Positions 1,195 through 23,623 of a DNA stretch of 64,000 nt are shown in pieces (the first letter of the stretch is position 1; each line of letters opens with the position of its first letter). Below the pieces are notes generated by a model. It saw only the letters and a list, made by a program, of their open reading frames with translations, did not search any database and was not told where the DNA came from. The position numbers were made by a program, and so were the translations under genes. This DNA comes from a virus (taxonomy: Duplodnaviria; Heunggongvirae; Uroviricota; Caudoviricetes): IMG/VR virus record IMGVR_UViG_3300035494_000066; one strand, written 5' to 3'.

Positions 1195-4100
1195 TTAGTA
1201 AGTGCCGCCATCAACTGCAATGTCTGGATCTAATGCTGCTCTGATCGGAGCAGGAGTTATTCCATCTGCTGCCAGAAGCTTAAGTGATCCGTTGTCATCT
1301 TTAAGCTGAATGTTGCCTAAGTGGATAGTGTTTCCGCTTAAGAACAAGTCACGCCACTTAAGTGTTGAACTACCTAAGTCGTATGTAACATCTGCAGAAG
1401 GAACTACATTACCAGTAACAGCTAGATCGCCGTTTGTATCAAATTTAGCTTCGCCGATGCCGTCGGAAATACCAACCGGAGTAGTTGTAGTTGTTAGCTT
1501 ACGAACTTCAACAATGTCTCCGGTTGCCGGAGCTTCAGTAAATGCTAACGTAGTTCCGCTCACGCCATAAGCAGTGATTGGAATCTGTACTACACCGTTA
1601 ATGCTTACAATACAACTAGCAGTAGTTTGGTCGTTGCTTAGTGTGAAGTTAGTAGTTACGTCATCGCCGGTGAACGTTTCACTCTCAATAAGTGTAAAGT
1701 CAACACCAGCTGACCACTCATAGCCGTCATACACTTCGTGTGTTTTAGTAGTAGTGTTATAACGGAACATACCTTCAACTGGAGTAACTGGACGTTCAGC
1801 TGTAGTACCTGCAGGTAGCACCATCGAGTCAGTACCGTCGACATGCAACGTAGCTTCTGCATGTCGAGCTACTAGTCCGCCGCTGCCTACAATTACACCT
1901 GTATGCAGATCAGCTTCGCCGCTAACATCTAAAGTACCAGATGTTGCAACATCACCGGTTACATCAGTTACTGTAAACACACCATTGACATTAATGCCGC
2001 CATCTAGACTAGCTAACCCAGCAACGTCAAGTGTTCCTAGTGTTGCGGTGTTACCGCTAGCAGCAGTTACAACAAAGTTGCCAGTACCGACATTTAATGA
2101 CGTGCCGTCGAATGTAAAGTTAGCGTCGCCTTCGAGCTCTCCAGCAACTCCGGCAATAACAACTTGGTTGTCGGTTAAGTCGCTAATAGCTGCAGATGCT
2201 AATGTGCTTTGTCCTGTTACACTTAATGTGCCGCCTACTGTAGCATTGCCCGATGCGTCTAACGTTGCTACATCGACGTCTGTAGCAGTCACAGACGCCA
2301 TTGTGCTAGCACCTGTTACAGCTAGAGTTCCACCAACAGTAACATTACCGGTTGTGTCTAAAGTAGCCGAGTCAATATCGGTAGCAGTTACACCTGCTAA
2401 TGTGCTCTGACCAGTTACACCTAAAGTTCCACCTACTGTTGCATTACCGCTAACAGTTGACGTAGCTGAAGCAACATCACCGGTTGCACTAACACCACCA
2501 GTAACCGAAACTGTAGTACCGTTAAATGTTAAGTTTGCACTGTCTTCTAACGAGCCGTCTAGGCCTGCTAGTACTACGCGGCCGCTAGTTAAATCACTAA
2601 CTGTTGCGCTAGCTAATGTAGCTTCGCCGGCTGTCGACAACGTACCGTTAACAGTAGTATTATTGCTTACTAGGTCACCTGTTGTTGTTGCACCAGTTTC
2701 CGAATTAACACTGAATGTAGTAACCGGAACTTCAGCGCCGTCGGTGATAGTAAATGTTTCGCCAACGCCGCCATTAACAGTAACACTTGACTCTAGAGTA
2801 GTTGCTCCAGTTACATCTAAAGTTCCGCCAACAGTTGCGTTTGTAGTAACAACAAGATTATTACCGATAGTAACATCGTCTGGTAAGCCGATAGTAACTG
2901 TTTGACCGTTTGCAACTGTTACAATTTCATTTGCTGTTCCAGCAAAGGTCATTGTCTGCGAGTCTAAGTCAACAGCGCCAGTGCCTGTGTCGCCAGCAAA
3001 ATCCAAGTCTTGATCTGTTACTAACTGATCGACATAAGACTTAGTTGCTGCATCTTGGGCTGCAGTCGGGTTAGCTACGTTAGTAACACGGTTTGCTCCC
3101 ATGTCGACTAGCTGCGCTGTGTTAACAGTTAAGCCGCCGTCAAAATCTGCAGACTGCACAAACGTAGTTGTACCTGTTACAGTTACAGTATCTAGAGCAT
3201 TATCACCAACTACAACATTTCCATTTAATGTAGTTGTACCTGCTACAGTTAAGTCACTGCCTGCAGTGATACTGCCTGTTAGTGTGCTAGAACCAGTTAC
3301 AGATAAGGTGCCGCCAATTGCTGTGTTACCAGTAGCAGCTACAACGTCGAACGCAGTTCCTACCTCGAATGTAGTACCATCAAACGTTAAGCTCGCGCTG
3401 TCTTCTAGTGCGCCGTTTAAACCAGCGATTACAATTCGATTATCCGTTAAGTCACTAACAGTAGCACTCGAAAGAGTAGACTCGCCAGCAACGCTTAGTG
3501 TACCTGCAACAGCAGTATTGCCGGTTACAGCATCAACTGTAAACTTGTTTGTAGCAACACTTAAGTCGTCTGCAACTGCTAGTGTTGAACTCAATGTTGC
3601 AGCGCCAGTTACACCTAGTGTACCACCTACTGTTGTATTTCCGGTTACGCCTAGTGTACCACCTACTGTTGCATTGTTTGCAATGTTTGCAGCGCCGGTT
3701 ACAGTTAAAGTCGATCCGTCAAACGTTAAGTTTGCACTGTCTTCGATTTCACCATTGATGCCGCTGATTAAGACGCGGTTATCGGTTAAATCTTCAACAC
3801 GTAACGACCCAAACGCAGCCGAACCTAGTGTACCGCTGAATACACTTGATGTGTCAGTAGCATCCGGAATGTAAACAAATTCACTGTCGCTATCGTCGAT
3901 ACCAAAGAACGCAACTTTTGCAGTTGTTCCGTCATTATAAAGTGCCTTAATACCACGGTCTAGGGTGTCGTTAACAGTGTCATCACCGATCTGGAATACA
4001 GGGTCTGCAATAGTTACAACAGTTGAATCGATAGTTGTTGTAGTACCTGTAACTGTTAAGTCACCTTCGATAATCACCTTACCGCCGCTACCAGCTGGGT

Positions 4101-6447
4101 ACGGGTCGATTACAATTGTGTTGCTGTCTGCATCAGACTCAATTGTATGGCCACTTACCTTAATGTCACCAACTTTAAGTGCCAAGGTGTCAGTGATAGT
4201 TAAACCAGTTGAGCTCACAGTTGCAACACGCTGACTATCGATATCCATAACGATTTCAGTGGTTGCTAAACCGTCGTCGATAACTTCTACTTTGCTATCG
4301 CCTTCGATAATCATATCCTTAAAATCGTTACTCAATTGATTTTCGAGGTACGACTTAGTAACCGCATCCTGTGCGCTCACAGGATCTTGGACGTTTTGAA
4401 TTAGATTACCCGAAGCGCTAATAGTCACTGGAGTAACGCCATCGCCGAATGTTGCTCCGCCTTTGGCTGCTAATTCGGTACTAACCGTCATTGTACCCAA
4501 TACAGAAATTGCATCAACTGCTGCATCGCCCAATGTAACTGCGCCGTTAAACGAACTTGCACCGACAAAAGTACCAGTACCAGTAACATTTAAGTTATTA
4601 GTAACACTAAGATTATTACCAATGGTAACATCATTTGGTAGGCCGATAGTTAGCGTGTCAGTTGCACTTACTGCAACATCGACTTCGTTTGCAGTTCCTG
4701 CGATAACAAACGTGTCGCCTTTTGCAATGCTCTGATCTGTAACGCCGTCGCTAATAGTAAACACGTCACTAAACTGAGTATCTACGTATCCCTTTGTAGC
4801 AGCATCACTTGAAGCAACAGGAGTTCCTACTCCGTTAACTACGTTACCACCCATGTCAACAGTTTGTAATGGGTCAACAGTTAGTCCGCCTGCAAAGTCA
4901 ACTGATTCTAAAAACGTAGTTGTTCCGTTAACAGTTACAATATCAGTCGCAGCATTACCAACTACAACAGAACCGTCTAGTGACGTGTCGCCAGTTACAT
5001 CTAACGTTCCGCCAACTGTTACATTACCAGTGGTGTCCAATGTAGATGCGTCAATATCAGTGGCTGTTATACCTGCTAATGTACTTTGTCCTGTAACAGT
5101 TACAGTTGTTAATGTAGTTGCACTAGTTACATCTAACGTTCCACCAACTGTTACATTACCAGTGGTGTCTAATGTAGATGCGTCAATATCAGTAGCAGTT
5201 ACGCCTGCTAATGTGCTTTGTCCATCAACTGTTAACGTACCAGTTGTTGACACGTTGCCTGTTGCAGAGTCGACACTGAATGTAGTAACCGGAACACTTG
5301 CGCCGTCAGTGATAGTAAATGTTTCGCCTGTTCCACCGTTAACAGTGACACTCGACTCGAGTGTAGTTGCACCCGTTACATCTAGCGTGCCACCAACTGT
5401 TACGTCACCGGTAGTGTCTAATGTAGCCGAGTCGATATCAGTCGCAGTTACACCTGCTAATGTACTTTGTCCGATTACATCTAATGTAGTACCGACACTA
5501 ACTGCACCGGTAGTGTCTAATGTAGCCGAGTTGATATCAGTGGCTGTTACGCCAGCTAATGTACTTTGTCCGATTACATCTAATGTAGTGCCAACACTAA
5601 CTGCACCAGTAGTATCAAGGGTTGCCGAGTCGATATCAGTGGCTGTTACGCCAGCTAATGTACTTTGTCCTGTAGCAGTTACGGTTGTTAATGTAGTTGC
5701 ACCAGATACATCTAATGTAGTACCGACACTAACTGCACCAGTTGTGTCTAAAGTATCCGAGTCGATATCAGTGGCTGTTACGCCAGCTAATGTACTTTGT
5801 CCGATTACATCTAACGTTCCACCTACCGTTACATTACCAGTAGTGTCCAAAGTAGATGCGTCAATGTCAGTGGCTGTTACGCTAGCTAATGTGCTTTGAC
5901 CAGTTACATCTAACGTAGTACCCACTGTTACATGTGTAGCCGAATCTAAACTATTAACGTCTAAGTCACCAGCAGTAACAGGTCCTGCAAGCGAAGTTGT
6001 TCCAGTTACTGACAAATCGCCAGCAATAGAAGCATTTCCGTCAGCTGTTACGTTATTAGCGTGGGCGTTTGCATACGTAACAAATGTTAAGTTACCTGCA
6101 GTTGTTCCATCTTCAGCGCCAACATTAACAAATGCGAATTCGTCAGCCGATTCGTCCCAGATCATAGCAAAGCTATCATCTGCACCTCGTTCGATTAATA
6201 AACCTACATCGACTGCACCTGTTGCTGCACCACTCGATAGAACAAGTAGAGGATCTTCTACTGTCATGTTCGATGTGTCGACAGTAACAGTAGATCCTTG
6301 TACGACTAAGTCGCCTGTGACAGTAAAGTTACTACCGTACGTTAAGTTATCTTCTAACTTACCGCCTGTGACTGCTTTATTATCAATCTTCGGCGTAGTA
6401 ACTGCAAGATCAGTTATCTGATCCGTTTTAATACGAGTAATTGCCAT
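1195..6447 (-). CDS. Large repetitive virion fibre/structural protein (~1750 aa)
   Basis: Thr/Gly/Val/Asp-rich beta-repeat sequence with three DA(A/V)TK.Y motifs, a GTTAERP...G.FRYNTT motif, an F.GD..TT.F domain and YDLGS..KW near the C-terminus. The second ATG (6447, MAITRIK) has a GGAG SD and is preferred over 6465. Confidence 0.85.
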   Translation of the reverse strand: MAITRIKTDQITDLAVTTPKIDNKAVTGGKLEDNLTYGSNFTVTGDLVVQGSTVTVDTSNMTVEDPLLVLSSGAATGAVDVGLLIERGADDSFAMIWDESADEFAFVNVGAEDGTTAGNLTFVTYANAHANNVTADGNASIAGDLSVTGTTSLAGPVTAGDLDVNSLDSATHVTVGTTLDVTGQSTLASVTATDIDASTLDTTGNVTVGGTLDVIGQSTLAGVTATDIDSDTLDTTGAVSVGTTLDVSGATTLTTVTATGQSTLAGVTATDIDSATLDTTGAVSVGTTLDVIGQSTLAGVTATDINSATLDTTGAVSVGTTLDVIGQSTLAGVTATDIDSATLDTTGDVTVGGTLDVTGATTLESSVTVNGGTGETFTITDGASVPVTTFSVDSATGNVSTTGTLTVDGQSTLAGVTATDIDASTLDTTGNVTVGGTLDVTSATTLTTVTVTGQSTLAGITATDIDASTLDTTGNVTVGGTLDVTGDTSLDGSVVVGNAATDIVTVNGTTTFLESVDFAGGLTVDPLQTVDMGGNVVNGVGTPVASSDAATKGYVDTQFSDVFTISDGVTDQSIAKGDTFVIAGTANEVDVAVSATDTLTIGLPNDVTIGNNLSVTNNLNVTGTGTFVGASSFNGAVTLGDAAVDAISVLGTMTVSTELAAKGGATFGDGVTPVTISASGNLIQNVQDPVSAQDAVTKSYLENQLSNDFKDMIIEGDSKVEVIDDGLATTEIVMDIDSQRVATVSSTGLTITDTLALKVGDIKVSGHTIESDADSNTIVIDPYPAGSGGKVIIEGDLTVTGTTTTIDSTVVTIADPVFQIGDDTVNDTLDRGIKALYNDGTTAKVAFFGIDDSDSEFVYIPDATDTSSVFSGTLGSAAFGSLRVEDLTDNRVLISGINGEIEDSANLTFDGSTLTVTGAANIANNATVGGTLGVTGNTTVGGTLGVTGAATLSSTLAVADDLSVATNKFTVDAVTGNTAVAGTLSVAGESTLSSATVSDLTDNRIVIAGLNGALEDSASLTFDGTTFEVGTAFDVVAATGNTAIGGTLSVTGSSTLTGSITAGSDLTVAGTTTLNGNVVVGDNALDTVTVTGTTTFVQSADFDGGLTVNTAQLVDMGANRVTNVANPTAAQDAATKSYVDQLVTDQDLDFAGDTGTGAVDLDSQTMTFAGTANEIVTVANGQTVTIGLPDDVTIGNNLVVTTNATVGGTLDVTGATTLESSVTVNGGVGETFTITDGAEVPVTTFSVNSETGATTTGDLVSNNTTVNGTLSTAGEATLASATVSDLTSGRVVLAGLDGSLEDSANLTFNGTTVSVTGGVSATGDVASATSTVSGNATVGGTLGVTGQSTLAGVTATDIDSATLDTTGNVTVGGTLAVTGASTMASVTATDVDVATLDASGNATVGGTLSVTGQSTLASAAISDLTDNQVVIAGVAGELEGDANFTFDGTSLNVGTGNFVVTAASGNTATLGTLDVAGLASLDGGINVNGVFTVTDVTGDVATSGTLDVSGEADLHTGVIVGSGGLVARHAEATLHVDGTDSMVLPAGTTAERPVTPVEGMFRYNTTTKTHEVYDGYEWSAGVDFTLIESETFTGDDVTTNFTLSNDQTTASCIVSINGVVQIPITAYGVSGTTLAFTEAPATGDIVEVRKLTTTTTPVGISDGIGEAKFDTNGDLAVTGNVVPSADVTYDLGSSTLKWRDLFLSGNTIHLGNIQLKDDNGSLKLLAADGITPAPIRAALDPDIAVDGGTY
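4990..5930 (-). repeat. Intragenic tandem repeats, 99/132-nt units built from 33-nt (11-aa) modules
   Basis: GCTAATGT(A/G)CTTTG recurs near 5077, 5208, 5457, 5556, 5655, 5787 and 5886, mostly 99 or 132 nt apart. The protein unit is GQSTLAGVTATDIDSATLDTTGAVSVGTTLDVI. Confidence 0.9.
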
Positions 6448-13307: not shown

Positions 13308-15014
13308 TTATGCATTCTCAGTATCAGTTAGTTCTGTTTCATCGGCGCTGATGTCTGCATCAATGTCGCTGAGTTCCGATTCGTCAGAGTCAACATCATC
13401 AACTCCTTCTAAGTCGGCTTCTAAGCCACCCGGAGATATACCTGCTGCACGCAAATCCGATCCGCTGTCGGTATCTGCAGATTGGTTATCATCGGAGCTG
13501 TTCTCTTCTCGCCACATGCGTTCGTTTTCAACAATTTCTGCTTCGCTCAGGCCTAAGAATCTCTTAAGTAAGAATCGCTTACTTAAGTACTCAACTCCGT
13601 CTAAACTAGAAAAAGACGTAATACGCTGCTGGTCGAGTTCTGCCTGTCGGTACGCTGCGAAATTCTGCGGTTCATTAAACACTAAGTCGAACAAACTGCT
13701 GTCAATATTAAAACCGCGCCATGCCAGGAATATTTTAAACTCGCGGTCGAGCGTTGGTGCTATCTGTGCTTGCAAGCGCTTACAATATTGATTAAAACGA
13801 TATTCTTGTATTAATGCTGTGCCAACGCGGCCATCACCTACTGCTTGTGAACTATCGTCGAGACCGGTTGGTAAGTAGCTACTCGGAATCCGAAGTCCGC
13901 GGAACATTTTGTTAGTAAAGAACTTTAAGTCGTCAATTTCGCCAAGTTGTGTGCCGCCCGGTAGCGTGTCAACTTTTGAGCCGCGGCCTTCTGCTGTTTG
14001 AGGGAAGAAGAAATCTTCATTCATCGACAAGGGGTTGTAAGTCGAATCAACTTGCGACGAGCCGCCACCGGTTTTATTCGGAATTCGTCTCTGATGGATT
14101 TCGTTTTTAATACGCTCAATGAAACCCATAGCTAAGTGACTCGGAAGGTTACCTACGTCGATATAAAATACTCGCCGCTCCGGGGCACGACTAATTCTAT
14201 AAATGATGATTGCATCTTCTAGAAGCTCCTTTTGCTTATACACTTTATAAATGTTTTCTAGTATACTAGTGCCAAACGGCCAGTTTTCGTCGAGACCTTC
14301 GGTCAAACTACAGTGCACAATATGATTTGCATCTATAACCGATTCTTCGCCGGCGGATGCGGTAGTATTACCGTCTTGGTTGTTAAGGTACGATTGTGCA
14401 CTGGACATTGTCCCAGTGCCTATATTGTCCCAGTTAGTTTCGTTCGGCGTTTCTGTTGTTACCAAGCTTGAAAATTTAGGAGCTAAGTTTTTTATAGAGT
14501 ACTGTTCTGGCTCTTTACGTTTTGTATCATTAATGACAATTTTAGTAACATCAGGCATTGCTACCCAGTACAGCTCAAATGTTTCCGGGTCCCTGATAAA
14601 GACCTGATCACCATACTTTAGCGTACTACGGAATAACCTAAACATACGCTTTTCTAAATCATTTAAATTAACCCATGCCCGGAGTTGATCTCTGAGTATT
14701 TTTACTTCCGATTCGGTTGCAGTGTCGTTATACCGTATTTCCATCGGCATGCCAGTTTCTTCTGACGCTTGGGTTGAAAACTCTGCAATGATATCAAGCG
14801 CAGCGTTAACTTCACTGTCTTGGTCCATGTTTTCATATTGTAAATATCGGTCTACTCGGTTAATATGGCCCGAATACACATCTTGCAAGTTACTAAAGTT
14901 GTCATAGCCCGGACTAGCCAGGGCATTATCATTACCGCGGTTAGACCCAGTGCCTGATATAGGACTATACTGGCCGCTTGTGTTAACAACTTTAAATCTC
15001 TTTTTATAGCTCAT
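13308..15014 (-). CDS. gp20: Portal protein (gp20-like)
   Basis: LLEDAIIIYRISRAPERRVFYIDVGNLP, EDFFFP, LPGG.QLGEIDD and LRIPSSYL motifs. Confidence 0.97.
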   Translation of the reverse strand: MSYKKRFKVVNTSGQYSPISGTGSNRGNDNALASPGYDNFSNLQDVYSGHINRVDRYLQYENMDQDSEVNAALDIIAEFSTQASEETGMPMEIRYNDTATESEVKILRDQLRAWVNLNDLEKRMFRLFRSTLKYGDQVFIRDPETFELYWVAMPDVTKIVINDTKRKEPEQYSIKNLAPKFSSLVTTETPNETNWDNIGTGTMSSAQSYLNNQDGNTTASAGEESVIDANHIVHCSLTEGLDENWPFGTSILENIYKVYKQKELLEDAIIIYRISRAPERRVFYIDVGNLPSHLAMGFIERIKNEIHQRRIPNKTGGGSSQVDSTYNPLSMNEDFFFPQTAEGRGSKVDTLPGGTQLGEIDDLKFFTNKMFRGLRIPSSYLPTGLDDSSQAVGDGRVGTALIQEYRFNQYCKRLQAQIAPTLDREFKIFLAWRGFNIDSSLFDLVFNEPQNFAAYRQAELDQQRITSFSSLDGVEYLSKRFLLKRFLGLSEAEIVENERMWREENSSDDNQSADTDSGSDLRAAGISPGGLEADLEGVDDVDSDESELSDIDADISADETELTDTENA

Positions 15015-15044: not shown

Positions 15045-17267
15045 TTAGTTCGCAGTGCGGACAAGCTTGTCCGACGCGTCTGCAGTTGACTTAACATGCT
15101 TCTGTATTTGCTGCAGCAACTCTACCTGCTGTTGTATTAAGTGGTCCGATGTGCTTCGTGTTTCGTCTAATTTTTTCAGCAATGCATTATATCGAGCTGG
15201 TTCAGATTTCCAACGCCTCATTTCAACTGCAATCGCATTTTGTTCAGCTTGGAGTTTTTCTAACATTGCACCGAATGCCTTAGTAGTTTCTTCTCTTAAT
15301 ATAGCCACTTCTTTGGCACTTGCTGTTTTTAATTCCGATCGAAGTTCTGTTACCATGCTGTCAATATCAGCATGCCGCGGTGTGTCTGCTGGTATTAAAG
15401 AAATACTACCCGAGTGTATGTTTTCGAAATTTTCTACTGTATACTTGTTATCATCAAATTGCTGTCCTCTTAAAGATTCACCGGGCTGCAATGAGGACAG
15501 CTCTGCATTACTCATTTTAGTCGTGTCTGACTTACCTGGAATAAGTCCGATCTCTTTAAGTCGCTCGTACAATTTTTCTAAATCAACGTTACCGTCGGCA
15601 TCACGCGACGACTCAATTACGCTAGCTATACTAACCAAGTTCTCTAACTGAGTATTAAAACCTTCAACTAAGTACTTAGTCATATTAATCGGCCCGGTTA
15701 TTATAGCCTGACCTGATTCCATAGCATCAGTGATAGTTTCTTGAATTTGAAAATACAAATCGCGCAGCTCTAATCGAGCCGACACAACTGCTTTGTTTAG
15801 TTCGTCGGGCGCTTCTATAGAGGCTACAGCTTCGGCTTGAGCAGTTTCTAACCCTGTTCTAAATCGATCTAGAGAGTCTAGTACACCAGTAAATGTCGAC
15901 TGGTATGTTTGCAACAGCCTGTTATCCGAAAACTGGGCTAATGCTACTGTGCTAGCATTATCGCGCATATACTTGTCGGCTACTGACACAGTACTTTGTA
16001 ATCGACTCTTAAGTTCTGACGCAAATTGATCAGGGTTTACGCCTGCTTGCAGTTTTAAAGCAAACTCACGCATTACGTCGGCTAGCGGGCCATATGCTTG
16101 TTCTACTATTGCCCCTTCTACCGAAACTGCGCCATCGCCGGCGATAATGTCAGTTAAGTACTTTTCAAATTCTGGAGCAATGCTGCCGAAGATCGCCGAC
16201 AATTGACCTAAGTTTTCCCGGACTCCTGAGACGCCGCGCGACTCTAGCTCTAGAACTTTTGCTCGCATTGTTGCTTGATCGCGGAATTGTTTTTGCCTAG
16301 CTTTAATTTCGTCGGCGTCTTCACCAGTTAACGCACTCAGTTCGCGTAGATTCTTAAGGTAAGAAAAACTTCCTTGGGATAACATAGCAATGTTATAATT
16401 TTGCTTGTGCAATCCCATGGTATTTTGGCGAGTATACTCGGTTACACTATCGGCAATTTCTTCATATGTATAACCCATACGTAAGAGTGCTTCGCGCTGT
16501 TGCTTAGGAATACCGTCGATAACACTGCTTAACACTTTAGCGCCTTCGGTTACAGTGCCGCCTATTGTAGCTAAGTCATTTGACCGCTTGTTCACTAACC
16601 CCGAAAACTGATCTAACGTTAGGTTTGCACGCAACGCTGTTTCTCTCATGTCAATTAATTGGCCACTGAAACCAGCACCACGCTGAGATAGTTCGTTCAT
16701 TGTGCTTGACATGTTTTCGAGTTGCGCCAAGAAAAACCCAGATACAGCAGCTGCAGATGTAACTAAAGTGTTAACAGTGCTAGCAGCACCTTCTGCTAGT
16801 CCTTTGATATTAGTACCCAAGATACTAATGCCACCGACCATTTTCCCGGTGGCACTGATCAATTCGGTCATCCTGCTAACAACGATGTTAGTAATTTCGC
16901 TAACTGATTCGAATTCGTTTGCACCCGATGCTATAGACGACGACAAATCACGCAACGTTGCAGCCGACTCCGACGTAACGTCGGTTAATACACTTCCGAA
17001 GTTTGTAACAGTGGTCGTTGCTTCTAGGTACTCACGATCAAATCGCTCGATTGTATTTGTTGCATCACGCGTGGCACGCGTTTGGTCTTCGATTGATTTT
17101 TTTGCCTTACGTTGAGCATTTTTTTCGTCAGTTTGCTGAGTTGTTTTAGCTTTGTTTGTCTTTTCTATCGCGGCAAGGATATCAAGCAACGTGCTTTCTT
17201 GCGCTGCGTTTTCGATCTTAATACGCCCGATACCCGGAACGTCTGCTTCAATAAAAGAGTTTGCCAC
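15045..17267 (-). CDS. Tape measure protein (gp29-like)
   Basis: 740-aa helical Ala/Gln/Glu-rich protein with Y.KNL.ELSALTG motif. GTG start; divergent from the tail-chaperone pair. Confidence 0.7.
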   Translation of the reverse strand: MANSFIEADVPGIGRIKIENAAQESTLLDILAAIEKTNKAKTTQQTDEKNAQRKAKKSIEDQTRATRDATNTIERFDREYLEATTTVTNFGSVLTDVTSESAATLRDLSSSIASGANEFESVSEITNIVVSRMTELISATGKMVGGISILGTNIKGLAEGAASTVNTLVTSAAAVSGFFLAQLENMSSTMNELSQRGAGFSGQLIDMRETALRANLTLDQFSGLVNKRSNDLATIGGTVTEGAKVLSSVIDGIPKQQREALLRMGYTYEEIADSVTEYTRQNTMGLHKQNYNIAMLSQGSFSYLKNLRELSALTGEDADEIKARQKQFRDQATMRAKVLELESRGVSGVRENLGQLSAIFGSIAPEFEKYLTDIIAGDGAVSVEGAIVEQAYGPLADVMREFALKLQAGVNPDQFASELKSRLQSTVSVADKYMRDNASTVALAQFSDNRLLQTYQSTFTGVLDSLDRFRTGLETAQAEAVASIEAPDELNKAVVSARLELRDLYFQIQETITDAMESGQAIITGPINMTKYLVEGFNTQLENLVSIASVIESSRDADGNVDLEKLYERLKEIGLIPGKSDTTKMSNAELSSLQPGESLRGQQFDDNKYTVENFENIHSGSISLIPADTPRHADIDSMVTELRSELKTASAKEVAILREETTKAFGAMLEKLQAEQNAIAVEMRRWKSEPARYNALLKKLDETRSTSDHLIQQQVELLQQIQKHVKSTADASDKLVRTAN

Positions 17268-17277
17268 CTTACCACCA

Positions 17278-17302
17278 TAAATACATGTATATTATCTATT
17301 TA
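17278..17302. promoter_or_regulatory. Face-to-face pair of late promoters
   Basis: CATAAATA on + (core 17278-17283) for gp26-like and GATAAATA on - (core 17297-17302) for the tape measure, within a 51-bp gap. Confidence 0.7.
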
Positions 17303-17318
17303 TCAGGAGCAACATTCA

Positions 17319-18149
17319 ATGAATAACCCACTATCTAATTACTTCCGGACTCCGGCAATTAGTATCCAACTACCGAGTCGCGGGAAGTTCTGGCCAGAAG
17401 GGGCTATAGACTTACCTGTTACAGGCGAACTAGACGTGTATCCAATGACAGCTCGGGACGAGATCTTGTTCAAAACACCCGACAGTTTGCTCAATGGTAA
17501 CGCTACCAAGACATGCATAAGTAGCTGTATACCAGCTATTAAAGACCCTAGCGCTATTCCTAGTATTGACCTTGACACTATACTTGTTGCTATCCGGATT
17601 GCGTCTGTAGGCGAGAATATGGCAATTAAATCGAAATGTCCGAAATGCAAAGAGCAAAACGAGTACGAAATCGATTTGCGGGCAATACTAGATTCGATCC
17701 AAGCGCCAAAAGACTTAGCAGCCCCAGTAACATACAATGGCTTAAAAATTTACCTAAGGCCCCAAAGCTATGCTGACATTAATGCTAAGAGCATTGAGGA
17801 CTTTGAACGACAACGAGCTGTTACAGCTGCAACACAAGAAGGAATACCCGAAGCAGAACGGATGGAACAGTTCAAAGCTATATTCACCAAACTAACCGAC
17901 TTAACAGTGAATTCGCTAGCAAATGGGATTAACTACATCGAACTTCCAGATGGAACAACAGTAGATGACCGCGGCTATATTCTAGAATATGTATCTAATG
18001 CCAGTCGCGAACTCTTTAAAGAAGTAAAAACAACTGTAGCTGAGTTTAACAACAGTTGTAAAATTAAGCCACTTCATATTAAGTGCGCAGACTGCGAGCA
18101 CGAATACGATACACCGATTGTATTGGATCAGAGTACTTTTTTCGAATAA
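17319..18149 (+). CDS. gp26: Baseplate hub/tail assembly chaperone (gp26-like)
   Basis: True start ATG 17319 (AGGAG SD). Motifs LPSRG, PMTARDE, D...LVAIRIASVGE, CPKC and CADC; ends STFFE. Confidence 0.8.
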   Translation: MNNPLSNYFRTPAISIQLPSRGKFWPEGAIDLPVTGELDVYPMTARDEILFKTPDSLLNGNATKTCISSCIPAIKDPSAIPSIDLDTILVAIRIASVGENMAIKSKCPKCKEQNEYEIDLRAILDSIQAPKDLAAPVTYNGLKIYLRPQSYADINAKSIEDFERQRAVTAATQEGIPEAERMEQFKAIFTKLTDLTVNSLANGINYIELPDGTTVDDRGYILEYVSNASRELFKEVKTTVAEFNNSCKIKPLHIKCADCEHEYDTPIVLDQSTFFE

Positions 18150-18373
18150 GGCTTTTATCCTTAGATAACCCGTCGATTATCAAAATGCTCAATAGGTTTG
18201 ATAACGAGATAAAAGCCTTAAAGAAAGAGCTCTTAAAGATATGCTGGTTTATGCGAGGGGGAGTTACTATTGATCATGCATATACTATGTCGATGCAAGA
18301 TCGCGAAATGATCTCAAAATTAATCAAAGAAAACCTAGAAACTACAAAGAAAACAGGACTTCCATTTTTCTAA
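18137..18373 (+). CDS. gp51-like small chaperone ORF, probably expressed as a -1 frameshift extension of gp26-like
   Basis: -1 frame ORF overlapping the gp26 stop at the slippery heptamer T TTT TTC. The in-frame ATG at 18185 has no SD. Contains WFMRGGVT..AY.M...DRE. Confidence 0.65.
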   Translation, partial: FFRIRLLSLDNPSIIKMLNRFDNEIKALKKELLKICWFMRGGVTIDHAYTMSMQDREMISKLIKENLETTKKTGLPFF

Positions 18374-18375
18374 TT

Positions 18376-18401
18376 AAAAAAGAGCAATATTGCTCTTTTT
18401 A
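18376..18401. terminator. Bidirectional intrinsic terminator
   Basis: AAAAAGAGCAATATTGCTCTTTTT palindrome between convergent transcription units. Confidence 0.8.
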
Positions 18402-18473
18402 TTTGATTTAAATTCCAGAACGATCCTTTCTATTACGATATGTGTTATGTATCTACAACTTCTATGTCTTTAG

Positions 18474-18523
18474 TGATGTACTTCGTACATCAAATTAATC
18501 ACTTCGTAAACTTCGTGATTAAT
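18474..18523. other. Adjacent DNA hairpins with C-GAA-G loop motif (origin-like)
   Basis: TGATGTAC-TTC-GTACATCA and AATTAATCAC...GTGATTAATT in an AT-rich non-coding stretch. Confidence 0.45.
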
Positions 18524-18609
18524 TATATTTTAAAAGATAATGTATAAAGACAACAAGTAACTAATCACATGTGATAGCAATGAACGCTATGAACGAAGTG
18601 AATAACTAC

Positions 18610-19018
18610 GCATTCATCTAGATATTGGATCCATACTTCGCCCAGGGCGGGCAAAGTAAAGTGAAATATCTTCATCTGAGTATCTCTCACCATTCAACTA
18701 AAGAAGATTTACATTATTTTTTAATCTGTTAGTTAGCGCATTTTAAAAGAGATTTGCAATGCATGTTAACAGAAAAATTAATAATGCAGCGGAGGCGGTT
18801 AGCCGGTACCCCCTACTTCAGCTTCATCCAACGGTACCTGCATACCCCGTAGTTGTCCAAGGTATAACAAGCCAGCAGTTGTATCTGTTTCACAGAGCTG
18901 CTATCATTTTGTGCCTTAAGTTAGCATTATCCTTCCAGCGCGTAACCACCATCGGCAACGAGCATGACCCCGGCTGAATCGTTACGAGTCGAGCAACCCC
19001 GACCAAACAGTGCTGGTA
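18610..19018 (-). ncRNA. Candidate large structured non-coding RNA (~410 nt), family not recognised
   Basis: At least 10 nested or adjacent helices; several pairs are G-U on the minus strand but A-C mismatches on the plus strand. No credible ORF. Confidence 0.6.
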
Positions 19019-19022
19019 TATA

Positions 19023-19155
19023 GCCTAAATTGAGTGTGCCTAAGATGTGCCTAGATCGCCTAATGCGAACAATGTGCCTAAATTGAGTGTGCCTAGATCG
19101 CCTAATGCGAACAATGTGCCTAAGATGTGCCTAGATCGCCTAATGCGAACAATGT
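19023..19155. repeat. Modular GCCTA repeat array (10 units, four module types, order ABCD-ACD-BCD)
   Basis: A=GCCTAAATTGAGTGT, B=GCCTAAGATGT, C=GCCTAGATC, D=GCCTAATGCGAACAATGT; all copies are exact. Confidence 0.95.
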
Positions 19156-19163
19156 TTTTTGAA

Positions 19164-19670
19164 TTACTTACAGAGAGTTTTTACTAAATTAGCATTGTAC
19201 TGCCAAAATGTATGGTACTCAATAAACCTCCAACTTCCGTGCAATGCTGAATTGTATTCAACATACGACGGTGCAATTGGATTATGTTTTGATTCTATGC
19301 AAATATACTGACCTTTTCGGTTAAACTTCATTATCAGTATATTAAAGTCGCCTGCATCTGCTGCGTCGAGTAACTGTGAAATCCATGTATCTAATACAGT
19401 GCATTTGTTACTTAGTAGCTGATGAAACGGAAATTCTTTATAAGATTTGCATTCAGCATTAAATCTTGGAAAGCTTTCTCCAGGCACAATGTCGCCTTTA
19501 AAGCTGCGAACTTGTCCTTCGTGTAAAAAAGCTTTCCGAGAATTATTAGTGCCACCCACGTAAGCACCGGAACCCGGTGCTCGAATAAATGTTTCGCCGT
19601 ACAGCTTAGATAACTCTTGAGCTGCTTTTCTCTCCCAGCTGGACCCTTTATTCTTTTGTGGACTTGGCAC
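19164..19670 (-). CDS. PD-(D/E)xK nuclease, Holliday junction resolvase-like (Hjc type)
   Basis: KGSSWER, F.RAPGSGA, GDI and AECK catalytic pattern. Located near gp46/47. Confidence 0.75.
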   Translation of the reverse strand: MPSPQKNKGSSWERKAAQELSKLYGETFIRAPGSGAYVGGTNNSRKAFLHEGQVRSFKGDIVPGESFPRFNAECKSYKEFPFHQLLSNKCTVLDTWISQLLDAADAGDFNILIMKFNRKGQYICIESKHNPIAPSYVEYNSALHGSWRFIEYHTFWQYNANLVKTLCK

Positions 19671-19685
19671 TAGTGATATTACCTT

Positions 19686-19713
19686 ATACTATACGATTTA
19701 TTTTTATTGTCAA
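19686..19713 (-). promoter_or_regulatory. Sigma70-type promoter
   Basis: TTGACA (19713-19708), 16-nt spacer, TAGTAT (19691-19686), pointing into the nuclease gene, repeat array and structured RNA. Confidence 0.55.
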
Positions 19714-19985: not shown

Positions 19986-21761
19986 TTACACGACATCTAC
20001 AGTGTCGCTAAACGATGTAAACCCGTTTTCTTTCGTTACTTTCAGAATGTTATTAACACGGTTTGTTAGTTCTTCGCGATGGCTTACTAACCAAACGCTT
20101 TTGTTTCGTTCGCGCGCCATTGCTTTCAATACATTTAGTGCGTTGTCAACACCTGCAGTATCTAATCCGTTGTCGATTAGTTCGTCGATGAACAGCAAGT
20201 TAACAGTATTGTATAGCCCTTCCCACACATCTCTAAACGCCCAGCTCAGGCTCAAAATTAGTCGGTTTCTCTCGCCGCGGCTTAAGTTATCAAAGTCTAG
20301 ATCGCGGCCGAGCTCAGTGATTTCAACTGAAAGATCATTTTGAAATACAACAGAGTGAGGTAAGCCCATTTTATCTAGGTAGTAACTTAGTCGGCTGTTT
20401 AAGAACGACATGTTCTGATCAATGATTCGCTTCCGGATATAACTGTCTTTATTAGTTAACAGCTTGACAAGAAATTCTTGATGATCCTTAAGGGAGGTTA
20501 AGCTATTAAGTGTTGAGTAGTCTACATCTTGCGAAGCTACTTCTTGCATTTCTTTAATTTGTTCGTCGTACGGATCTTCTGTGTCCTTTAACTTATCTAG
20601 TTCGAATTGTAGCTGTTCTAGTGACGTTTTGTGATTCTGTGCATCGCTGATGTTTTTGTAATAGACTACAGGTTTATCTCCAAGATCGCCGATATTATTC
20701 ACTTCTTCGATGTGTGCAACTAGTTGCGATTCTGCAGCTGCAATTAAATCATTTGTGTCGTTTAGCATTTCTGTTTTTGAGCCGAGAATCTCTTCTTGCT
20801 GTGTGTCGTGTAAGTCGCTACCGCATGCATAACACTTGTGAGACTTGATGTCTGCGATTTCTTTCTCGAGCTTGCTAACTGTACGGAAGTGAGTTTGCAA
20901 ATCCCGCTCTATAGAAGAAACCCATTTATTTGATTGATCGAGTTTCTCTTTTTTAATATTGTACTCGTTGAGTAACTCGTGATTTTTAAATTCAGCGTCG
21001 ATATCAACGTGTGATAGTTCGTCGATTGCAATCTTTAACTCTTCTATGTCCTTGTTCTTTTTTGACAACCACATAGATTGCCGACGCCGCAACCCGTCGA
21101 TAGATTCTTTAATCCTTTTGTTTGCGTCATGAATGCCGCTGATTTTGTACTCTTCGGATTTAATCAAATCTTTGGTTTGTTTTATTTCCTCTTTGAGTTT
21201 GTCAGCTTTTTCACTTAGCTTTGTAATGCCTAACAGCTGCTCAATAATAGTACGCTGATCGTTAGTACGCATACTTAAGAACGGTGTAGTGTAGGTATTC
21301 AAAGCCAATATGTGCTTAAACATCTCGTGGCTCATGTTGAGGATCTTTTCTATCTCAGCTTGAGTTTCTCTACTATCGCCTTGGCTTTCGTTTTCTGCAG
21401 ATTCTTCGAATTCGATGTTGTTAATGTATAGTTTTGTAAAAGTCGGCTTTCGCCCTCGCTCTATTTTGTAAAGTACACCATTGGCTTCAAACTCTGCAGT
21501 AACAACCATGTGTTTACCGTTTGTTTTGTTAATCAGGTTGTCTTTTTTGATATTAGTTAAGGCATTACCGTAAAATGCATAACTTAGTGCGTTTAGTGCA
21601 GTTGTTTTTCCTGTCCCGTTGCGGGATCCGGTATCTCCTTGTCCTGCATCTAAGTTTTCTCCAAGTACAAGAGTCAAATCGTTCCTGTTTAGTTCGATTG
21701 CTTGTGTTTGGTTTCCGATTGACATGAAGTTTTTTGCAGTAAGGTTTTTAATGCAAATCAT
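19986..21761 (-). CDS. gp46: Recombination ATPase (gp46/SbcC/Rad50)
   Basis: KNFMSIG, Walker A NGTGKTT, zinc hook CYAC, signature LSRGE, Walker B LLFIDE and H-loop VSH. Confidence 0.96.
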   Translation of the reverse strand: MICIKNLTAKNFMSIGNQTQAIELNRNDLTLVLGENLDAGQGDTGSRNGTGKTTALNALSYAFYGNALTNIKKDNLINKTNGKHMVVTAEFEANGVLYKIERGRKPTFTKLYINNIEFEESAENESQGDSRETQAEIEKILNMSHEMFKHILALNTYTTPFLSMRTNDQRTIIEQLLGITKLSEKADKLKEEIKQTKDLIKSEEYKISGIHDANKRIKESIDGLRRRQSMWLSKKNKDIEELKIAIDELSHVDIDAEFKNHELLNEYNIKKEKLDQSNKWVSSIERDLQTHFRTVSKLEKEIADIKSHKCYACGSDLHDTQQEEILGSKTEMLNDTNDLIAAAESQLVAHIEEVNNIGDLGDKPVVYYKNISDAQNHKTSLEQLQFELDKLKDTEDPYDEQIKEMQEVASQDVDYSTLNSLTSLKDHQEFLVKLLTNKDSYIRKRIIDQNMSFLNSRLSYYLDKMGLPHSVVFQNDLSVEITELGRDLDFDNLSRGERNRLILSLSWAFRDVWEGLYNTVNLLFIDELIDNGLDTAGVDNALNVLKAMARERNKSVWLVSHREELTNRVNNILKVTKENGFTSFSDTVDVV

Positions 21762-21764
21762 TAA

Positions 21765-22781
21765 TTAAAGATTCCTGTAAATTTCGAGCAGAACCTTAGG
21801 GTCGTAAAACTCGCTTTCGATTTGTGATAGTTGACTGTTGACGATAGTGTCGATGCTTTCGAAATTAACATCTCCGGTTATCTCGTTTGAGTGCTCAGCT
21901 GATCGCCTAGTAGGAATAATAGTAAAGTCCCTCATTTTGTACTGACTAACAAATGTCTCTTTAATAAATGTTGATTCTTCGTAGCTAATGTCAATGTCTA
22001 AGTCGACCCTAGCATATGTTTTGTTAGTTAAGTACTTATCTGGGTTATCTAGCAACTGACTAAGTGACAGTGTTCGGTACCGCGGCGCATCGGGCCACGC
22101 AATGTAACGTTCAGGTTGCCCCCACTCTAGGATAGCAACACCGCGGTCATCATCCCATGCGTCTGAATAATTGTGAGGAAATGCGTTGCCGATGTATGAC
22201 ACATTGTGGTTTTTTTGTCTTTTGTGGAAGTGGCCCGAAAATACTTGCTCAACTCCTTGCATGTCACTAACGTTAACATCGCCGTGATCTGGCATTTTAA
22301 CCATAGCGTTCATGTAAAAGTTTGGCAGTTCAAAATGGCCGAACATGTACTTCGCGTTAATCTTTTTTAGTTTTTTGTGATCGTCGCCTACTAACCACGG
22401 AACAATACTAACATCGCCTTCGCAGAAGAAGTCGTTAATAATATTAATACCTTTGATGTTCCGGGCCCACTCTGCACTTTGTATGTCGCGTTTGTCTCTG
22501 TAGTACAAGTCGTGGTTGCCTGGAATAAAAAACACTTGACTAAATGACTGACTTAATAGTTCAAGTGCTTGCAAACTATAATTTAACGTTGCGATGTTAA
22601 TGGTATTTCTGTGATGGTGCCAATCGCCTAAGAACAGAAGGGTATCGCACCCTTCGTCCTTGCCAGTTTTAATCACCCAGTTAACAAAATCTAAACAGTC
22701 CTGATTGTGTAGCATACTGTTTGACTTATTTCCTAGATGCAAATCTGTAAACATAATTGCTTTTTTAAACAAATTACTCAT
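21765..22781 (-). CDS. gp47: Recombination nuclease (gp47/SbcD/Mre11)
   Basis: Metallophosphoesterase motifs DLHLG, LGDWHH, GNHD, GHFE and SGHFH. Confidence 0.96.
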   Translation of the reverse strand: MSNLFKKAIMFTDLHLGNKSNSMLHNQDCLDFVNWVIKTGKDEGCDTLLFLGDWHHHRNTINIATLNYSLQALELLSQSFSQVFFIPGNHDLYYRDKRDIQSAEWARNIKGINIINDFFCEGDVSIVPWLVGDDHKKLKKINAKYMFGHFELPNFYMNAMVKMPDHGDVNVSDMQGVEQVFSGHFHKRQKNHNVSYIGNAFPHNYSDAWDDDRGVAILEWGQPERYIAWPDAPRYRTLSLSQLLDNPDKYLTNKTYARVDLDIDISYEESTFIKETFVSQYKMRDFTIIPTRRSAEHSNEITGDVNFESIDTIVNSQLSQIESEFYDPKVLLEIYRNL

Positions 22782-23623
22782 AAATTCTCGTTGTTGTCGT
22801 TAAGGTCATTATAGAATCTAGCTTCAGCAATAGTGTGTTCGTTATTTGCTTGTCTAGTGTGGCTAGGATTCATGTCATTCATTTCGAGGATATCGTCTCG
22901 AGTATCTTGAATTTGTTTTTCGATATTAAGTATTCGAGTAAATGAGTTCTTAATAGTTGTTGTGTAGTACGCAAACGGATTTAAGCTCTTACTTTCGTCG
23001 AATTGAAGTCCTACATGCACTAACTGTACTAAGGCTTGTCCTTTCATTTCGTCGTTGTAAGAATAGCCCCGCCAGTTCGATCGTGTGCCGTACCGCTCGC
23101 AAAGTTTAAGCATCATGCGACCGAGTTCGTTAGTCATCTTTCCGTGAGATTTAGAAAACTTTCCAGTCTCTAGATCCCCTTTCCAGTGACTTTTTCCGAC
23201 GCACTCTAACTGATGATTTTTATTAAATCGGAAGTGTTGAAACGGAGGGAAGTTTAACTTGACATGTTTATCGGCTTCAGTTTTTATTGTTTTTTTACGA
23301 CCTTTTTCTTCGGGTATATGATCAAATGTCATGACACGAAACACAATATCAGTAACATCGTATGTCTCGGGGTCGATATTAAAATCAGATGCTTTTAGCT
23401 CTTTCTTTTTTGCTTCTTTAATGTAAGCGTAATAGTTGTCTCTGCCGATCCTAGCTGCTCTGGTGGATTTACTTTCTGCTGCTAGGTCGATTGTGATATC
23501 ACTAACTGAGTTAACGATTACATCATAGTCTCGGTCGTGGTCTGTTGCAAAACTACTGTATGTACATTTACTTCGGTGAATTTCTTTTAGTATGTCGCGA
23601 TTGTTTAGGTAATTTACTTTCAT
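22778..23623 (-). CDS. gp55: Late-transcription sigma factor (gp55-like)
   Basis: YLNN.D at the N-terminus, then NW.GYSYNDEM, FDE.KS.NPFAYYT and F.RIL..EK. TAAATA boxes precede the structural genes. Confidence 0.9.
   Translation of the reverse strand: MKVNYLNNRDILKEIHRSKCTYSSFATDHDRDYDVIVNSVSDITIDLAAESKSTRAARIGRDNYYAYIKEAKKKELKASDFNIDPETYDVTDIVFRVMTFDHIPEEKGRKKTIKTEADKHVKLNFPPFQHFRFNKNHQLECVGKSHWKGDLETGKFSKSHGKMTNELGRMMLKLCERYGTRSNWRGYSYNDEMKGQALVQLVHVGLQFDESKSLNPFAYYTTTIKNSFTRILNIEKQIQDTRDDILEMNDMNPSHTRQANNEHTIAEARFYNDLNDNNENL

What the first reader, a model, noticed from the sequence alone, without database searches (positions are those of the whole stretch)
18610..19018. Candidate novel ~410-nt multi-domain structured RNA on the minus strand
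Seen (plus-strand coordinates, RNA read on minus): a three-way junction from CCAGC/GCUGG (19012-19016/18935-18939), GUCGGG/CUCGAC (18998-19003/18988-18993) and CGUAAC/GUUACG (18981-18986/18941-18946). AGCAG/CUGCU encloses UCUGU-GAA-ACAGA (18874-18902). AUACCUUG/CGGGGUAU at 18842-18865. Long-range AGCUGAAG/CUUUAGUU (18816-18823/18696-18703) encloses GGGGG-UAC-CGG-CUAA-CCG-CCUCC (18791-18813) and a long AU-rich arm (18711-18787). UGAG/CUCA at 18677-18689. GAUAUU/AAUAUC encloses UACUUUGCCC/GGGCGAAGUA (18621-18670). At least seven pairs are G-U on minus but A-C on plus, which points to selection at the RNA level on one strand. GAUGAA recurs three times. I do not see tRNA, tmRNA, RNase P, group I/II intron or hammerhead signatures. 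Inference: an uncharacterised large phage ncRNA. Possible roles are a ColE1 RNAII-like replication pre-primer (it points into an origin-like tract), a ribozyme or scaffold, or less likely a partner of the upstream co-oriented nuclease.
Basis: partly seen in the sequence, partly recalled or inferred. Interest (0 to 1): 0.85.

Follow-up and report, generated by a model that had tools for sequence, protein, structure and literature searches.

The report
Large twin-box phage RNA (Polynucleobacter-1 relative)
The gene-free stretch behind a small nuclease gene of this uncultured giant T4-like phage encodes a real, doubly knotted non-coding RNA of about 400 bases; it is a variant of a large phage RNA family of which only one domain, in sister phages, is catalogued (Rfam Polynucleobacter-1), and nobody knows what it does.

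Summary
Window 19016-18612 (minus strand) encodes a conserved structured RNA. More than 120 homologues lie in IMG/VR phage contigs, always co-oriented behind a PDDEXK_15 nuclease gene.

Covariation supports at least 12 helices and two pseudoknots:
- 31-sequence alignment: 91.5% paired against at most 48% when partners are slid, 0/500 shuffles.
- 34-sequence alignment across two architectures: 85.2% against at most 51%, 0/500.

Four were re-assigned.

It is not wholly uncharacterised. In 62 sister loci the same conserved 3' domain follows the Rfam motif Polynucleobacter-1 (RF01718, function unknown). The window carries a different 5' domain, shared with 60 loci, that RF01718 does not detect. 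The 3' core is not in Rfam.

The oddest feature is a 7-nt word (RGAUNAN) that occurs twice, about 50 nt apart. The two copies change in step (identical in 78 of 79 distinct RNAs), and no complementary partner lies in cis.

Function is unknown. My best guess is a stable trans-acting RNA that presents the twin boxes to an unidentified nucleic-acid partner. Primer and nuclease-guide roles are unsupported. Expression could not be tested.

This scan found the same family earlier on other genomes, with the same reading.

The parts
19686..19713 (-). sigma-70-like promoter consensus (TTGACA-16-TAGTAT) upstream of the nuclease gene; possible start of a nuclease+RNA transcription unit
   Evidence: a consensus match only, and not enriched over shuffles
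19164..19670 (-). 168-aa PDDEXK_15 (T5 D14-like, 'RusA-like resolvase') nuclease gene, co-oriented and directly upstream of the RNA
   Evidence: Pfam PF24608 E=1.4e-26; phrog_244. It is the nearest conserved upstream gene in 93 related loci (two protein clusters, 80+13)
19023..19155 (-). array of three ~40-nt direct repeats carrying UAGGC(A) cores, between the nuclease stop codon and the RNA
   Evidence: Relatives carry 1-3 copies of an AGGCA motif at the same place. The motif is not enriched genome-wide
18874..19016 (-). 5' domain (window type): P1 19016-19012/18939-18935; P2 19003-18998/18993-18988; P3 18986-18981/18946-18941 with inner P3a; P4 18926-18924/18914-18912 (loop UAACUUAAG); P5 18902-18898/18878-18874 with P5a 18894-18892/18882-18880
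   Evidence: coordinates; covariation (helices 1-8); window-type 5' HMM against the window E=1.8e-17
18836..18872 (-). P6 long hairpin (GCUUG/CAGGU, AUACCUUG/CGGGGUAU). Its loop CAACUA (18855-18850) forms pseudoknot PK2
   Evidence: helix 9 (91% paired, 9 of 14 pairs changed on both sides)
18791..18832 (-). Conserved core: PK1 GUUGG 18832-18828 with CUAAC 18802-18798, interleaved with P7 GGGGGU 18813-18808 / GCCUCC 18796-18791 (H-type pseudoknot); P8 5' strand GAAG 18825-18822
   Evidence: PK1 paired 34/34 at five positions, with UA/AU/GC/CG exchange at one; P7 paired 34/34 at five positions
18710..18788 (-). P9, here extended to a ~79-nt AU-rich arm (a short GNRA-capped hairpin in most relatives)
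   Evidence: lineage-specific insertion
18695..18706 (-). P8 3' strand CUUC 18706-18703, and PK2 3' strand UAGUUG 18700-18695
   Evidence: P8 covaries in both architectures. All 7 PK2 pairs change on both sides. Per sequence, PK2 complementarity is 7.0 nt against 4.5 nt in shuffles, with 46 distinct duplexes
18670..18680 (-). Twin box 1 (CUCAGAUGAAG; word AGAUGAA). Possibly in the loop of a hairpin (AGAUA 18685-18681 / UAUUU 18668-18664), but that hairpin is not statistically supported
   Evidence: hairpin test inconclusive
18634..18658 (-). P10 hairpin UACUUUGCCC / GGGCGAAGUA
18612..18622 (-). Twin box 2 (UCUAGAUGAAU; same word AGAUGAA); conservation of the family ends here
18475..18521 (-). 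Conserved downstream hairpin pair. HP1 18521-18496: stem with GAAG..CGAAG loop. HP2 18491-18475: stem closed by a C-GAA-G triloop. HP1's 3' half is also complementary to 18605-18593
   Evidence: The hairpin type is not a genome-wide repeat
18377..18400 (.). palindromic, bidirectional intrinsic terminator; likely 3' end of the primary transcript

Best explanation
What it is (shown). Window ~19016-18612, minus strand, encodes a conserved, non-coding, highly structured RNA. It is one of three architectures of an RNA family. All three occupy the same slot: co-oriented behind a PDDEXK_15 nuclease gene, at the end of the gp55-gp47-gp46 recombination gene block, in a clade of uncultured T4-like or jumbo phages.

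The invariant part is the 3' core:
- the P6 hairpin;
- an H-type pseudoknot (PK1 interleaved with P7);
- a junction closed by P8 that holds P7 and P9;
- a second pseudoknot (PK2) between the P6 loop and the linker after P8;
- the P10 hairpin;
- two copies of a 7-nt word, about 50 nt apart.

The 5' domain is exchangeable. In sister phages it is the Rfam motif Polynucleobacter-1. Here it is a different P1-P5 domain.

How it works (inferred, not shown). It is probably transcribed with, or just after, the nuclease gene and ends at the downstream hairpins or terminator. I think it acts in trans as a stable folded RNA. Its knotted core would be a scaffold that displays the two identical boxes for base pairing with one nucleic-acid partner encoded elsewhere (phage or host). 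I give this mechanism about 35-40%. The identity as a real RNA of the extended Polynucleobacter-1 family I give more than 90%.
For: Homology:
- The window RNA alone finds 11 loci by nhmmer (E 2e-18 to 5e-5), all on the nuclease strand.
- A family HMM built without the window hits 18958-18618 (minus strand) at E=3.4e-49.

Structure:
- A1 (31 sequences): 91.5% of cells paired against 34-48% when partners are slid; 43 of 70 pairs changed on both sides; 0/500 shuffles reach the observed value.
- A2 (34 sequences, both architectures plus the window): 85.2% against 37-51%; 0/500; all 7 PK2 pairs covary.
- PK2 per sequence: 7.0 nt against 4.5 nt in shuffles.

Non-coding: the longest ATG-ORF per member has a median of about 27 aa.

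Strand: conserved G-U pairs.

Link to RF01718:
- 108-114 bits in L118, L036 and L094, directly upstream of the shared 3' domain.
- Loci by architecture: 62 Polynucleobacter-1 type, 60 window type, 44 third type.

Synteny: the nuclease gene is the nearest conserved upstream gene in 93 loci (two protein clusters, 80+13). The next downstream gene is usually convergent, so this is not a 5' UTR.

Twin boxes:
- Identical in 78 of 79 distinct RNAs, over 7 word variants.
- Seven non-overlapping pairs of RNAs at least 90% identical elsewhere differ in the word; both copies changed together in all but one RNA (L125).
- Divergent members carry quite different words, again twice (ACAGAGAG, GCGAA.AUAUCC, UGGUAAU.AGU).
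Against: - Expression, ends and stability are untested here.
- No partner for the boxes was found. There is no complementary 7-mer at a consistent place within the loci. No alignment column has strong mutual information with the box positions. There is no third copy or complement in the divergent loci.
- The word is too short (7 nt) for a genome-wide search to mean anything.
- That box 1 sits in a hairpin loop is not supported statistically (4.91 against 4.85).
- The 1-nt linker between the PK1 and P7 strands is sterically tight for a classical H-type knot, so the two helices might alternate instead of coexisting.
Confidence: 0.7

Rival explanations
1. Ribozyme. The knotted core is a catalytic RNA, and the twin boxes are its two substrate or processing sites. 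It might, for example, cut or join at both boxes and release the ~50-nt P10 segment or define the 3' end.
For: It is large, with two pseudoknots and many invariant unpaired nucleotides in junctions (UAACUUAAG, CCGUUG, GGUAC, AACCGCC). That is the profile of known large ribozymes. Family conservation stops right after box 2.
Against: No internal guide complementary to the boxes exists. A sequence-specific active site would hold both boxes to one consensus. It would not let them drift together. There is no match to any self-cleaving or intron family in Rfam.
Confidence: 0.15
2. Protein sponge or RNP scaffold. The RNA binds a phage or host protein, for example a dimeric RNA-binding regulator, through the two identical boxes. 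It either titrates the protein or forms part of an RNP.
For: Two identical single-stranded sites on a structured scaffold resemble the architecture of sponges such as CsrB (established knowledge). About 40% of members (33 of 79 distinct RNAs) read GGAUGA or GGAUAA in both boxes.
Against: The other members read AGAU, which lacks the GGA that CsrA needs. Protein recognition does not explain why the two boxes change together while the word varies freely between close relatives.
Confidence: 0.12
3. Cofactor or guide of the adjacent PDDEXK nuclease. This would be a nuclease-RNA system like HEARO/IscB or TnpB-omegaRNA, with the variable word as the programmable part.
For: Strict co-orientation and adjacency in 93 loci (two protein clusters, 80+13). 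Possibly one transcription unit. The word is short, variable and lies at the 3' side of a conserved scaffold. Weinberg et al. noted the same gene association.
Against: The nuclease is only 168 aa and is covered by the PDDEXK_15 profile, with no extra domain. The closest cultured homologues (SCTP-2 51%, PA5oct 42.5% identity) have the same length but no such RNA next to them. All loci come from one syntenic clade, so adjacency cannot be told apart from inherited gene order. In some loci another gene lies between the nuclease and the RNA. A 7-nt guide is too short for specificity.
Confidence: 0.07
4. Replication-origin transcript. The folded RNA forms an R-loop or primer that runs into the downstream hairpin tract, and the upstream repeats act as iterons.
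For: An iteron-like repeat array lies upstream. Downstream hairpins have d(GCGAAGC)-like loops, a motif known from ssDNA-phage origins (my own knowledge). The locus lies at the flat minimum of cumulative GC skew and next to recombination genes.
Against: The repeat array is an expansion specific to this lineage; relatives have 1-3 copies. The skew minimum coincides with the switch in gene orientation. Primer RNAs are not known to need two covarying pseudoknots or twin boxes. The tract downstream ends in a terminator and a convergent gene.
Confidence: 0.05
5. Cis-acting 3'-UTR element of the recombination or nuclease operon, acting as an mRNA stabiliser, exonuclease block or processing signal, with no trans function.
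For: It sits at the 3' end of a co-oriented gene block. No convincing promoter of its own was found.
Against: The complexity, the exchangeable 5' domains around a fixed core, and the twin boxes far exceed what terminators or 3' stabilisers need. A separate terminator follows.
Confidence: 0.08

Closest known systems
Polynucleobacter-1 RNA motif (Rfam RF01718; Weinberg et al. 2010, Genome Biol 11:R31, PMC2864571)
   Same: Same genomic slot: downstream of one gene family, as the 2010 supplement says. In 62 sister loci the RF01718 domain sits directly upstream of the very 3' core that the window RNA has. Both are orphans with no known function.
   Different: The window's 5' domain is not detected by RF01718, even at E<=10. 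The Rfam model covers 141 nt. It does not cover the 3' core (PK1, P7, P8, PK2, P10, twin boxes), which is the part conserved across architectures. The 2010 work found 16 examples and none in purified phage. Here the carriers are T4-like or jumbo phage contigs.
HEARO / IscB omegaRNA and TnpB omegaRNA (nuclease-associated structured RNAs)
   Same: A large, pseudoknotted RNA next to, and co-oriented with, a small nuclease gene, carrying a short variable segment.
   Different: The nuclease is PD-(D/E)xK, not RuvC/HNH. The variable word is 7 nt and is present twice. RNA-less homologues of the nuclease exist. No Rfam similarity. No transposon ends.
ROOL, GOLLD, OLE and raiA (large ornate bacterial or phage RNAs of unknown or recently emerging function)
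   Same: Size class, phage association (ROOL and GOLLD), many conserved junction nucleotides, unknown biochemistry.
   Different: No sequence or structure match (Rfam). Different gene neighbourhood. Oligomerisation was not examined here.
ColE1 RNA II / T4 origin transcripts
   Same: A structured, untranslated transcript near repeats and an AT-rich tract.
   Different: No evidence of an R-loop or an origin. The pseudoknots and twin boxes have no counterpart.

Membership tests
Polynucleobacter-1 RNA (RF01718) | Covariance-model score at or above the gathering cut-off (37 bits) | tested here: not met
   No hit in the window at gathering, nor at E<=10 on 18200-19400. Sister loci score 108-114 bits.
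Polynucleobacter-1 RNA (RF01718) | Location downstream of, and co-oriented with, the associated gene family (GOS11034 / PSSM2_218-like, per the 2010 supplement) | tested here: inconclusive
   The RNA follows a PDDEXK_15 gene here and in 93 loci (two protein clusters, 80+13), including RF01718-positive ones. That this gene equals GOS11034 could not be checked.
Extended family (shared 3' core; defined here) | Homology of the 3' core to RF01718-positive loci | tested here: met
   Window query hits L041, L045 and L033 at E 4e-6 to 5e-5 and L036 at 0.06. L036 is RF01718-positive by cmscan. Family HMM against the window E=3.4e-49. 62 Polynucleobacter-1-type and 60 window-type loci share the core.
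Extended family (shared 3' core) | PK1, P7, P8, PK2 and P10 can form in the window and covary in the family | tested here: met
   Window pairs listed; covariation.
Extended family (shared 3' core) | Two identical copies of the 7-nt word ~50 nt apart | tested here: met
   Window: AGAUGAA at 18680-18670 and 18622-12. Family: 78 of 79 identical.
tRNA / tmRNA | ARAGORN detection (acceptor and T arm, tag ORF) | tested here: not met
   0 genes in the whole window.
RNase P, group I/II introns, known self-cleaving ribozymes, riboswitches, ROOL/GOLLD/OLE/HEARO | Match to the Rfam covariance model | tested here: not met
   No hit at gathering over 64 kb. None at E<=10 on the locus. None at E<=1 on seven sister loci, other than RF01718.
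RNA-guided nuclease system (omegaRNA-like) | The nuclease depends on, and co-occurs strictly with, the RNA; the guide matches a target | tested here: not met
   Same-length homologues in SCTP-2 and PA5oct lack the RNA. No target-like complement was found. The biochemistry is not testable here.

The most novel reading that the evidence does not exclude
The twin boxes are a programmable specificity element. The knotted core would be the scaffold of a new RNA-guided or RNA-catalysed activity of T4-like phages, either a new ribozyme class or a guide for a phage enzyme such as the neighbouring PD-(D/E)xK nuclease. The target would be set by the 7-14-nt word, which changes quickly between competing phages.
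Probability: 0.12. Interest if true: 0.9.

Novelty: new variant of a known kind. Interest (0 to 1): 0.62.

Why it matters
Large, intricately folded RNAs with unknown jobs are rare, and in the past they have turned out to be ribozymes, guides or cages.

This result does three things:
- It shows that the orphan Polynucleobacter-1 motif is only one interchangeable domain of a 300-500-nt phage RNA.
- It defines the true conserved core, with two pseudoknots.
- It documents an unusual signal: two direct copies of a short word that change in step. That signal points to a nucleic-acid partner or an identity-dependent process.

The RNA is common in uncultured freshwater-type T4-like and jumbo phages. 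Solving its function would therefore add a widespread piece of phage biology. The twin boxes also give a clean handle for experiments.

Tried and rejected
- blastn of the locus against 50,697 phage records: no match.
- Public sequencing runs: no RNA holder listed; only DNA runs (tar pit, hydrocarbon, aquatic metagenomes) hold it. Expression therefore could not be examined and read laying was not used.
I used nhmmer profiles and hand-curated structures instead.
- RNAalifold on the MAFFT alignment recovered only 29 pairs because variable helices were misaligned.
- Hairpin around box 1 (P11) and around box 2: flank complementarity no better than shuffles (4.91 against 4.85; 4.18 against 4.54). 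Left as tentative.
- Search for the boxes' partner, all blank or non-significant:
  - exact complements and extra copies within the loci;
  - mutual information with all core columns;
  - long-word divergent members;
  - the 10-mer in the 302-kb genome.
- UAGGCA as a general promoter: not enriched genome-wide.
- The GNA-loop hairpin as a dispersed repeat: only 9 in the genome.
- Bacterial genomes: 84 pattern matches, of which about 10 are real. All of those are on MAG contigs (Haliscomenobacter, Methylococcaceae, Flavobacteriales and others), most likely binned phage DNA.
- Ideas considered and dropped:
  - gene-60-like ribosomal bypass (no ORF enters box 1);
  - CsrA sponge (over half lack GGA);
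  - box C/D or k-turn (the consensus is not kept);
  - palindrome-mediated pairing of the two boxes (only AUCU/AGAU, and it does not covary);
  - TPP-riboswitch resemblance of AUCUGGAUAAUGC (no Rfam hit).

Full report
**Context.** The window is the minus strand of a 302.5-kb IMG/VR virus record. The neighbouring genes mark a T4-like or jumbo phage:
- T4-type portal, 13308-15014 (-)
- gp51-like baseplate hub, 17112-18149 (+)
- Rad50/Mre11-like gp46/gp47, 19986-22781 (-)
- gp55-like late sigma factor, 22778-23623 (-)
- a 168-aa PDDEXK_15 nuclease, 19164-19670 (-), Pfam E=1.4e-26

The finding lies in the 790-nt gene-free gap between that nuclease gene and the convergent gp51 side.

**Observation.** Alone it folds at -123.9 kcal/mol, z=-2.78, which is suggestive only. 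Rfam gives nothing at gathering thresholds over the whole window. At E<=10 on the locus it gives only a terminator-like match at 18376-18404. ARAGORN finds no tRNA or tmRNA.

**Homologues.**
- Loci fetched with the nuclease protein (59 loci) showed 11 with nhmmer similarity to the RNA. All were downstream of the nuclease and on the same strand.
Every one carries whole-RNA homology, E 1e-7 to 1e-71.
- A profile built only from those loci hits window 18958-18618 (-) at E=3.4e-49.
- Members have no conserved ORF; the median longest ATG-ORF is about 27 aa.

**Structure.** On a 31-member alignment (A1) I curated 14 helices. Of their cells 91.5% are standard pairs, against 34-48% when partners are slid. 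43 of 70 pairs show changes on both sides, and no shuffle in 500 reaches the observed values.

Two pseudoknots stand out:
- PK1, GUUGAU/GUCAAC, interleaved with P7, GGGGGU/GCCUCC.
- PK2, between the P6 hairpin loop and the linker after P8. It first appeared as the strongest mutual-information pair. It then showed 7.0 nt against 4.5 nt of contiguous complementarity, with 46 different duplex sequences in 79 RNAs.

On a second alignment spanning both main architectures plus the window (A2), PK1, P7, PK2 and P10 give 85.2% paired against 37-51% slid, 0/500. All seven PK2 pairs covary. P8 covaries in both architectures in its own register.

All these pairs can form in the window at the coordinates listed under parts. 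Four pairings are re-assigned, as set out in the observation check. Conserved G-U pairs fix the strand.

**What is known.** An E-value Rfam scan of seven sister loci gave one family. It was RF01718, Polynucleobacter-1, at 108-114 bits (gathering cut-off 37) in L118, L036 and L094, each immediately 5' of the shared core.

Profiles for each 5' domain divide the 178 loci held as follows:
- 62 with the Polynucleobacter-1-type 5' domain plus the shared 3' core;
- 60 with the window-type 5' domain plus the same core;
- 44 with a third architecture in the same slot, whose core my profile does not detect;
- 8 truncated;
- 4 with none.

The window matches only the window-type 5' profile (E=1.8e-17).

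The 2010 supplement describes Polynucleobacter-1 as 16 examples from environmental DNA and one Polynucleobacter genome. Most lay downstream of gene family GOS11034, and none was seen in purified phage. No function was proposed. It is the only paper in the held library that names the motif.

So the RNA is not categorically new. But the catalogued motif is merely one exchangeable domain. The window carries another, and the conserved core is uncatalogued.

**Neighbourhood.** Clustering ORFs around the RNA shows the nuclease gene, split into two clusters, as the nearest conserved upstream gene in 93 loci. gp46 and gp47 lie further upstream. The first downstream gene varies and is mostly convergent. 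That argues against a 5'-UTR regulator.

Occasionally another gene sits between the nuclease and the RNA. The nearest cultured homologues of the nuclease have the same length but are followed directly by other genes and give no RNA hit. They are Salicola phage SCTP-2 (51% identity) and Pseudomonas phage PA5oct (42.5%).

In bacterial genome collections the true hits are all on MAG contigs.

**Twin boxes.** After the core come two direct copies of a short word: ACUC-RGAUNAN and, 47-58 nt later, AUCU-RGAUNAN.
- The 7-nt word is identical in both places in 78 of 79 distinct RNAs, across seven word variants.
- Seven non-overlapping pairs of RNAs that are at least 90% identical elsewhere differ in the word. 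Both copies changed together in every one of these RNAs except L125.
- Divergent members carry unrelated words, again twice.

Direct, not complementary, covariation implies one of two things: a shared partner that discriminates A from G, or a process that needs the two sites to be identical. I found no partner in cis. The word is too short for a whole-genome search. This remains unexplained.

**Flanks.**
- Upstream, the three ~40-nt repeats (19023-19155) are an expansion of an AGGCA-containing motif. Relatives carry it once to three times just 5' of the RNA. It is not a genome-wide motif.
- Downstream, a conserved pair of hairpins (HP1 and HP2, 18521-18475) with GNRA-like or GNA loops follows in most relatives. 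In many relatives HP2 abuts the stop codon of the convergent gene and is followed by a run of U.
- In the window a strong palindromic terminator lies at 18377-18400.
- A sigma-70-like consensus precedes the nuclease gene (19713-19686). No convincing promoter lies directly before the RNA.

**Function.** Expression could not be tested. From its anatomy the RNA looks like a trans-acting folded RNA, not a regulator of a neighbouring gene. The twin boxes suggest pairing with a nucleic-acid partner. I rank that first (about 35-40% for the mechanism). Ribozyme, protein sponge, cis-acting 3' element, nuclease cofactor and origin primer follow, as set out under rivals.

**Earlier notes of this scan.** I consulted them only after my own analysis. 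The same family was met on many other genomes, with the same reading: an extended Polynucleobacter-1 'twin-box' phage RNA with an unknown partner and no evidence that it guides the nuclease.

Noticed in passing
window 19023-19155: Three ~40-nt direct repeats with about ten UAGGC cores fill the gap between the nuclease stop codon and the RNA. Relatives carry 1-3 copies of an AGGCA motif at the same spot (for example L075, L118, L123, L157). It could be a leader, a protein site or a promoter element; it is not a genome-wide motif.
   Followed up: partly
window 18475-18521 and 18593-18605: A conserved hairpin pair lies downstream of the RNA. HP1 is a stem with an internal UGA/GAAA-type loop and a 2-bp mini-stem capped by GNRA-like or GNA loops. 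HP2 is a stem closed by C-GNA-G, like the very stable d(GCGAAGC) mini-hairpin. The segment right after box 2 (CACUUCGU) is the reverse complement of HP1's 3' half, so alternative pairing is possible.
   Followed up: partly
L006, L007, L010, L020, L026, L032, L038, L054 (about 3540-4380): A third RNA architecture occupies the same slot behind the nuclease gene in 44 loci. It shares the first hairpins (CUCCUUGAG...CUGGAG) with the window type but has a different core (GCGUUGC...GCAACCGGUGGC, and a long CCAUUGGUAGUGC hairpin). The same HP1/HP2 pair follows it.
   Followed up: partly
L047 3500-4740: One nuclease locus has a different, 1.2-kb gene-free region with GC-rich structured-looking segments in place of the RNA. 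I did not examine it.
   Followed up: no
L217 and L225 (MAG Haliscomenobacter sp. EUL_031, contigs of 148 and 183 kb); also L192, L200, L231 (Methylococcaceae MAGs): Full-length copies of the RNA lie on large contigs binned into bacterial MAGs. These are probably phage genomes mis-binned with their hosts, which could hint at host range.
   Followed up: no
window 18710-18788: The window's P9 is expanded to a ~79-nt AU-rich arm. Inside it (about 18735-18755) is a near-copy of the P8-3'/linker sequence (GCAAAUCUCUUUUAAAAUG), which suggests a local duplication.
   Followed up: no
L265 (PA5oct) 1479-2990: In Pseudomonas phage PA5oct a ~1.5-kb stretch with only tiny annotated ORFs lies between the baseplate-hub side and the resolvase-like gene. 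It has no similarity to this RNA.
   Followed up: no
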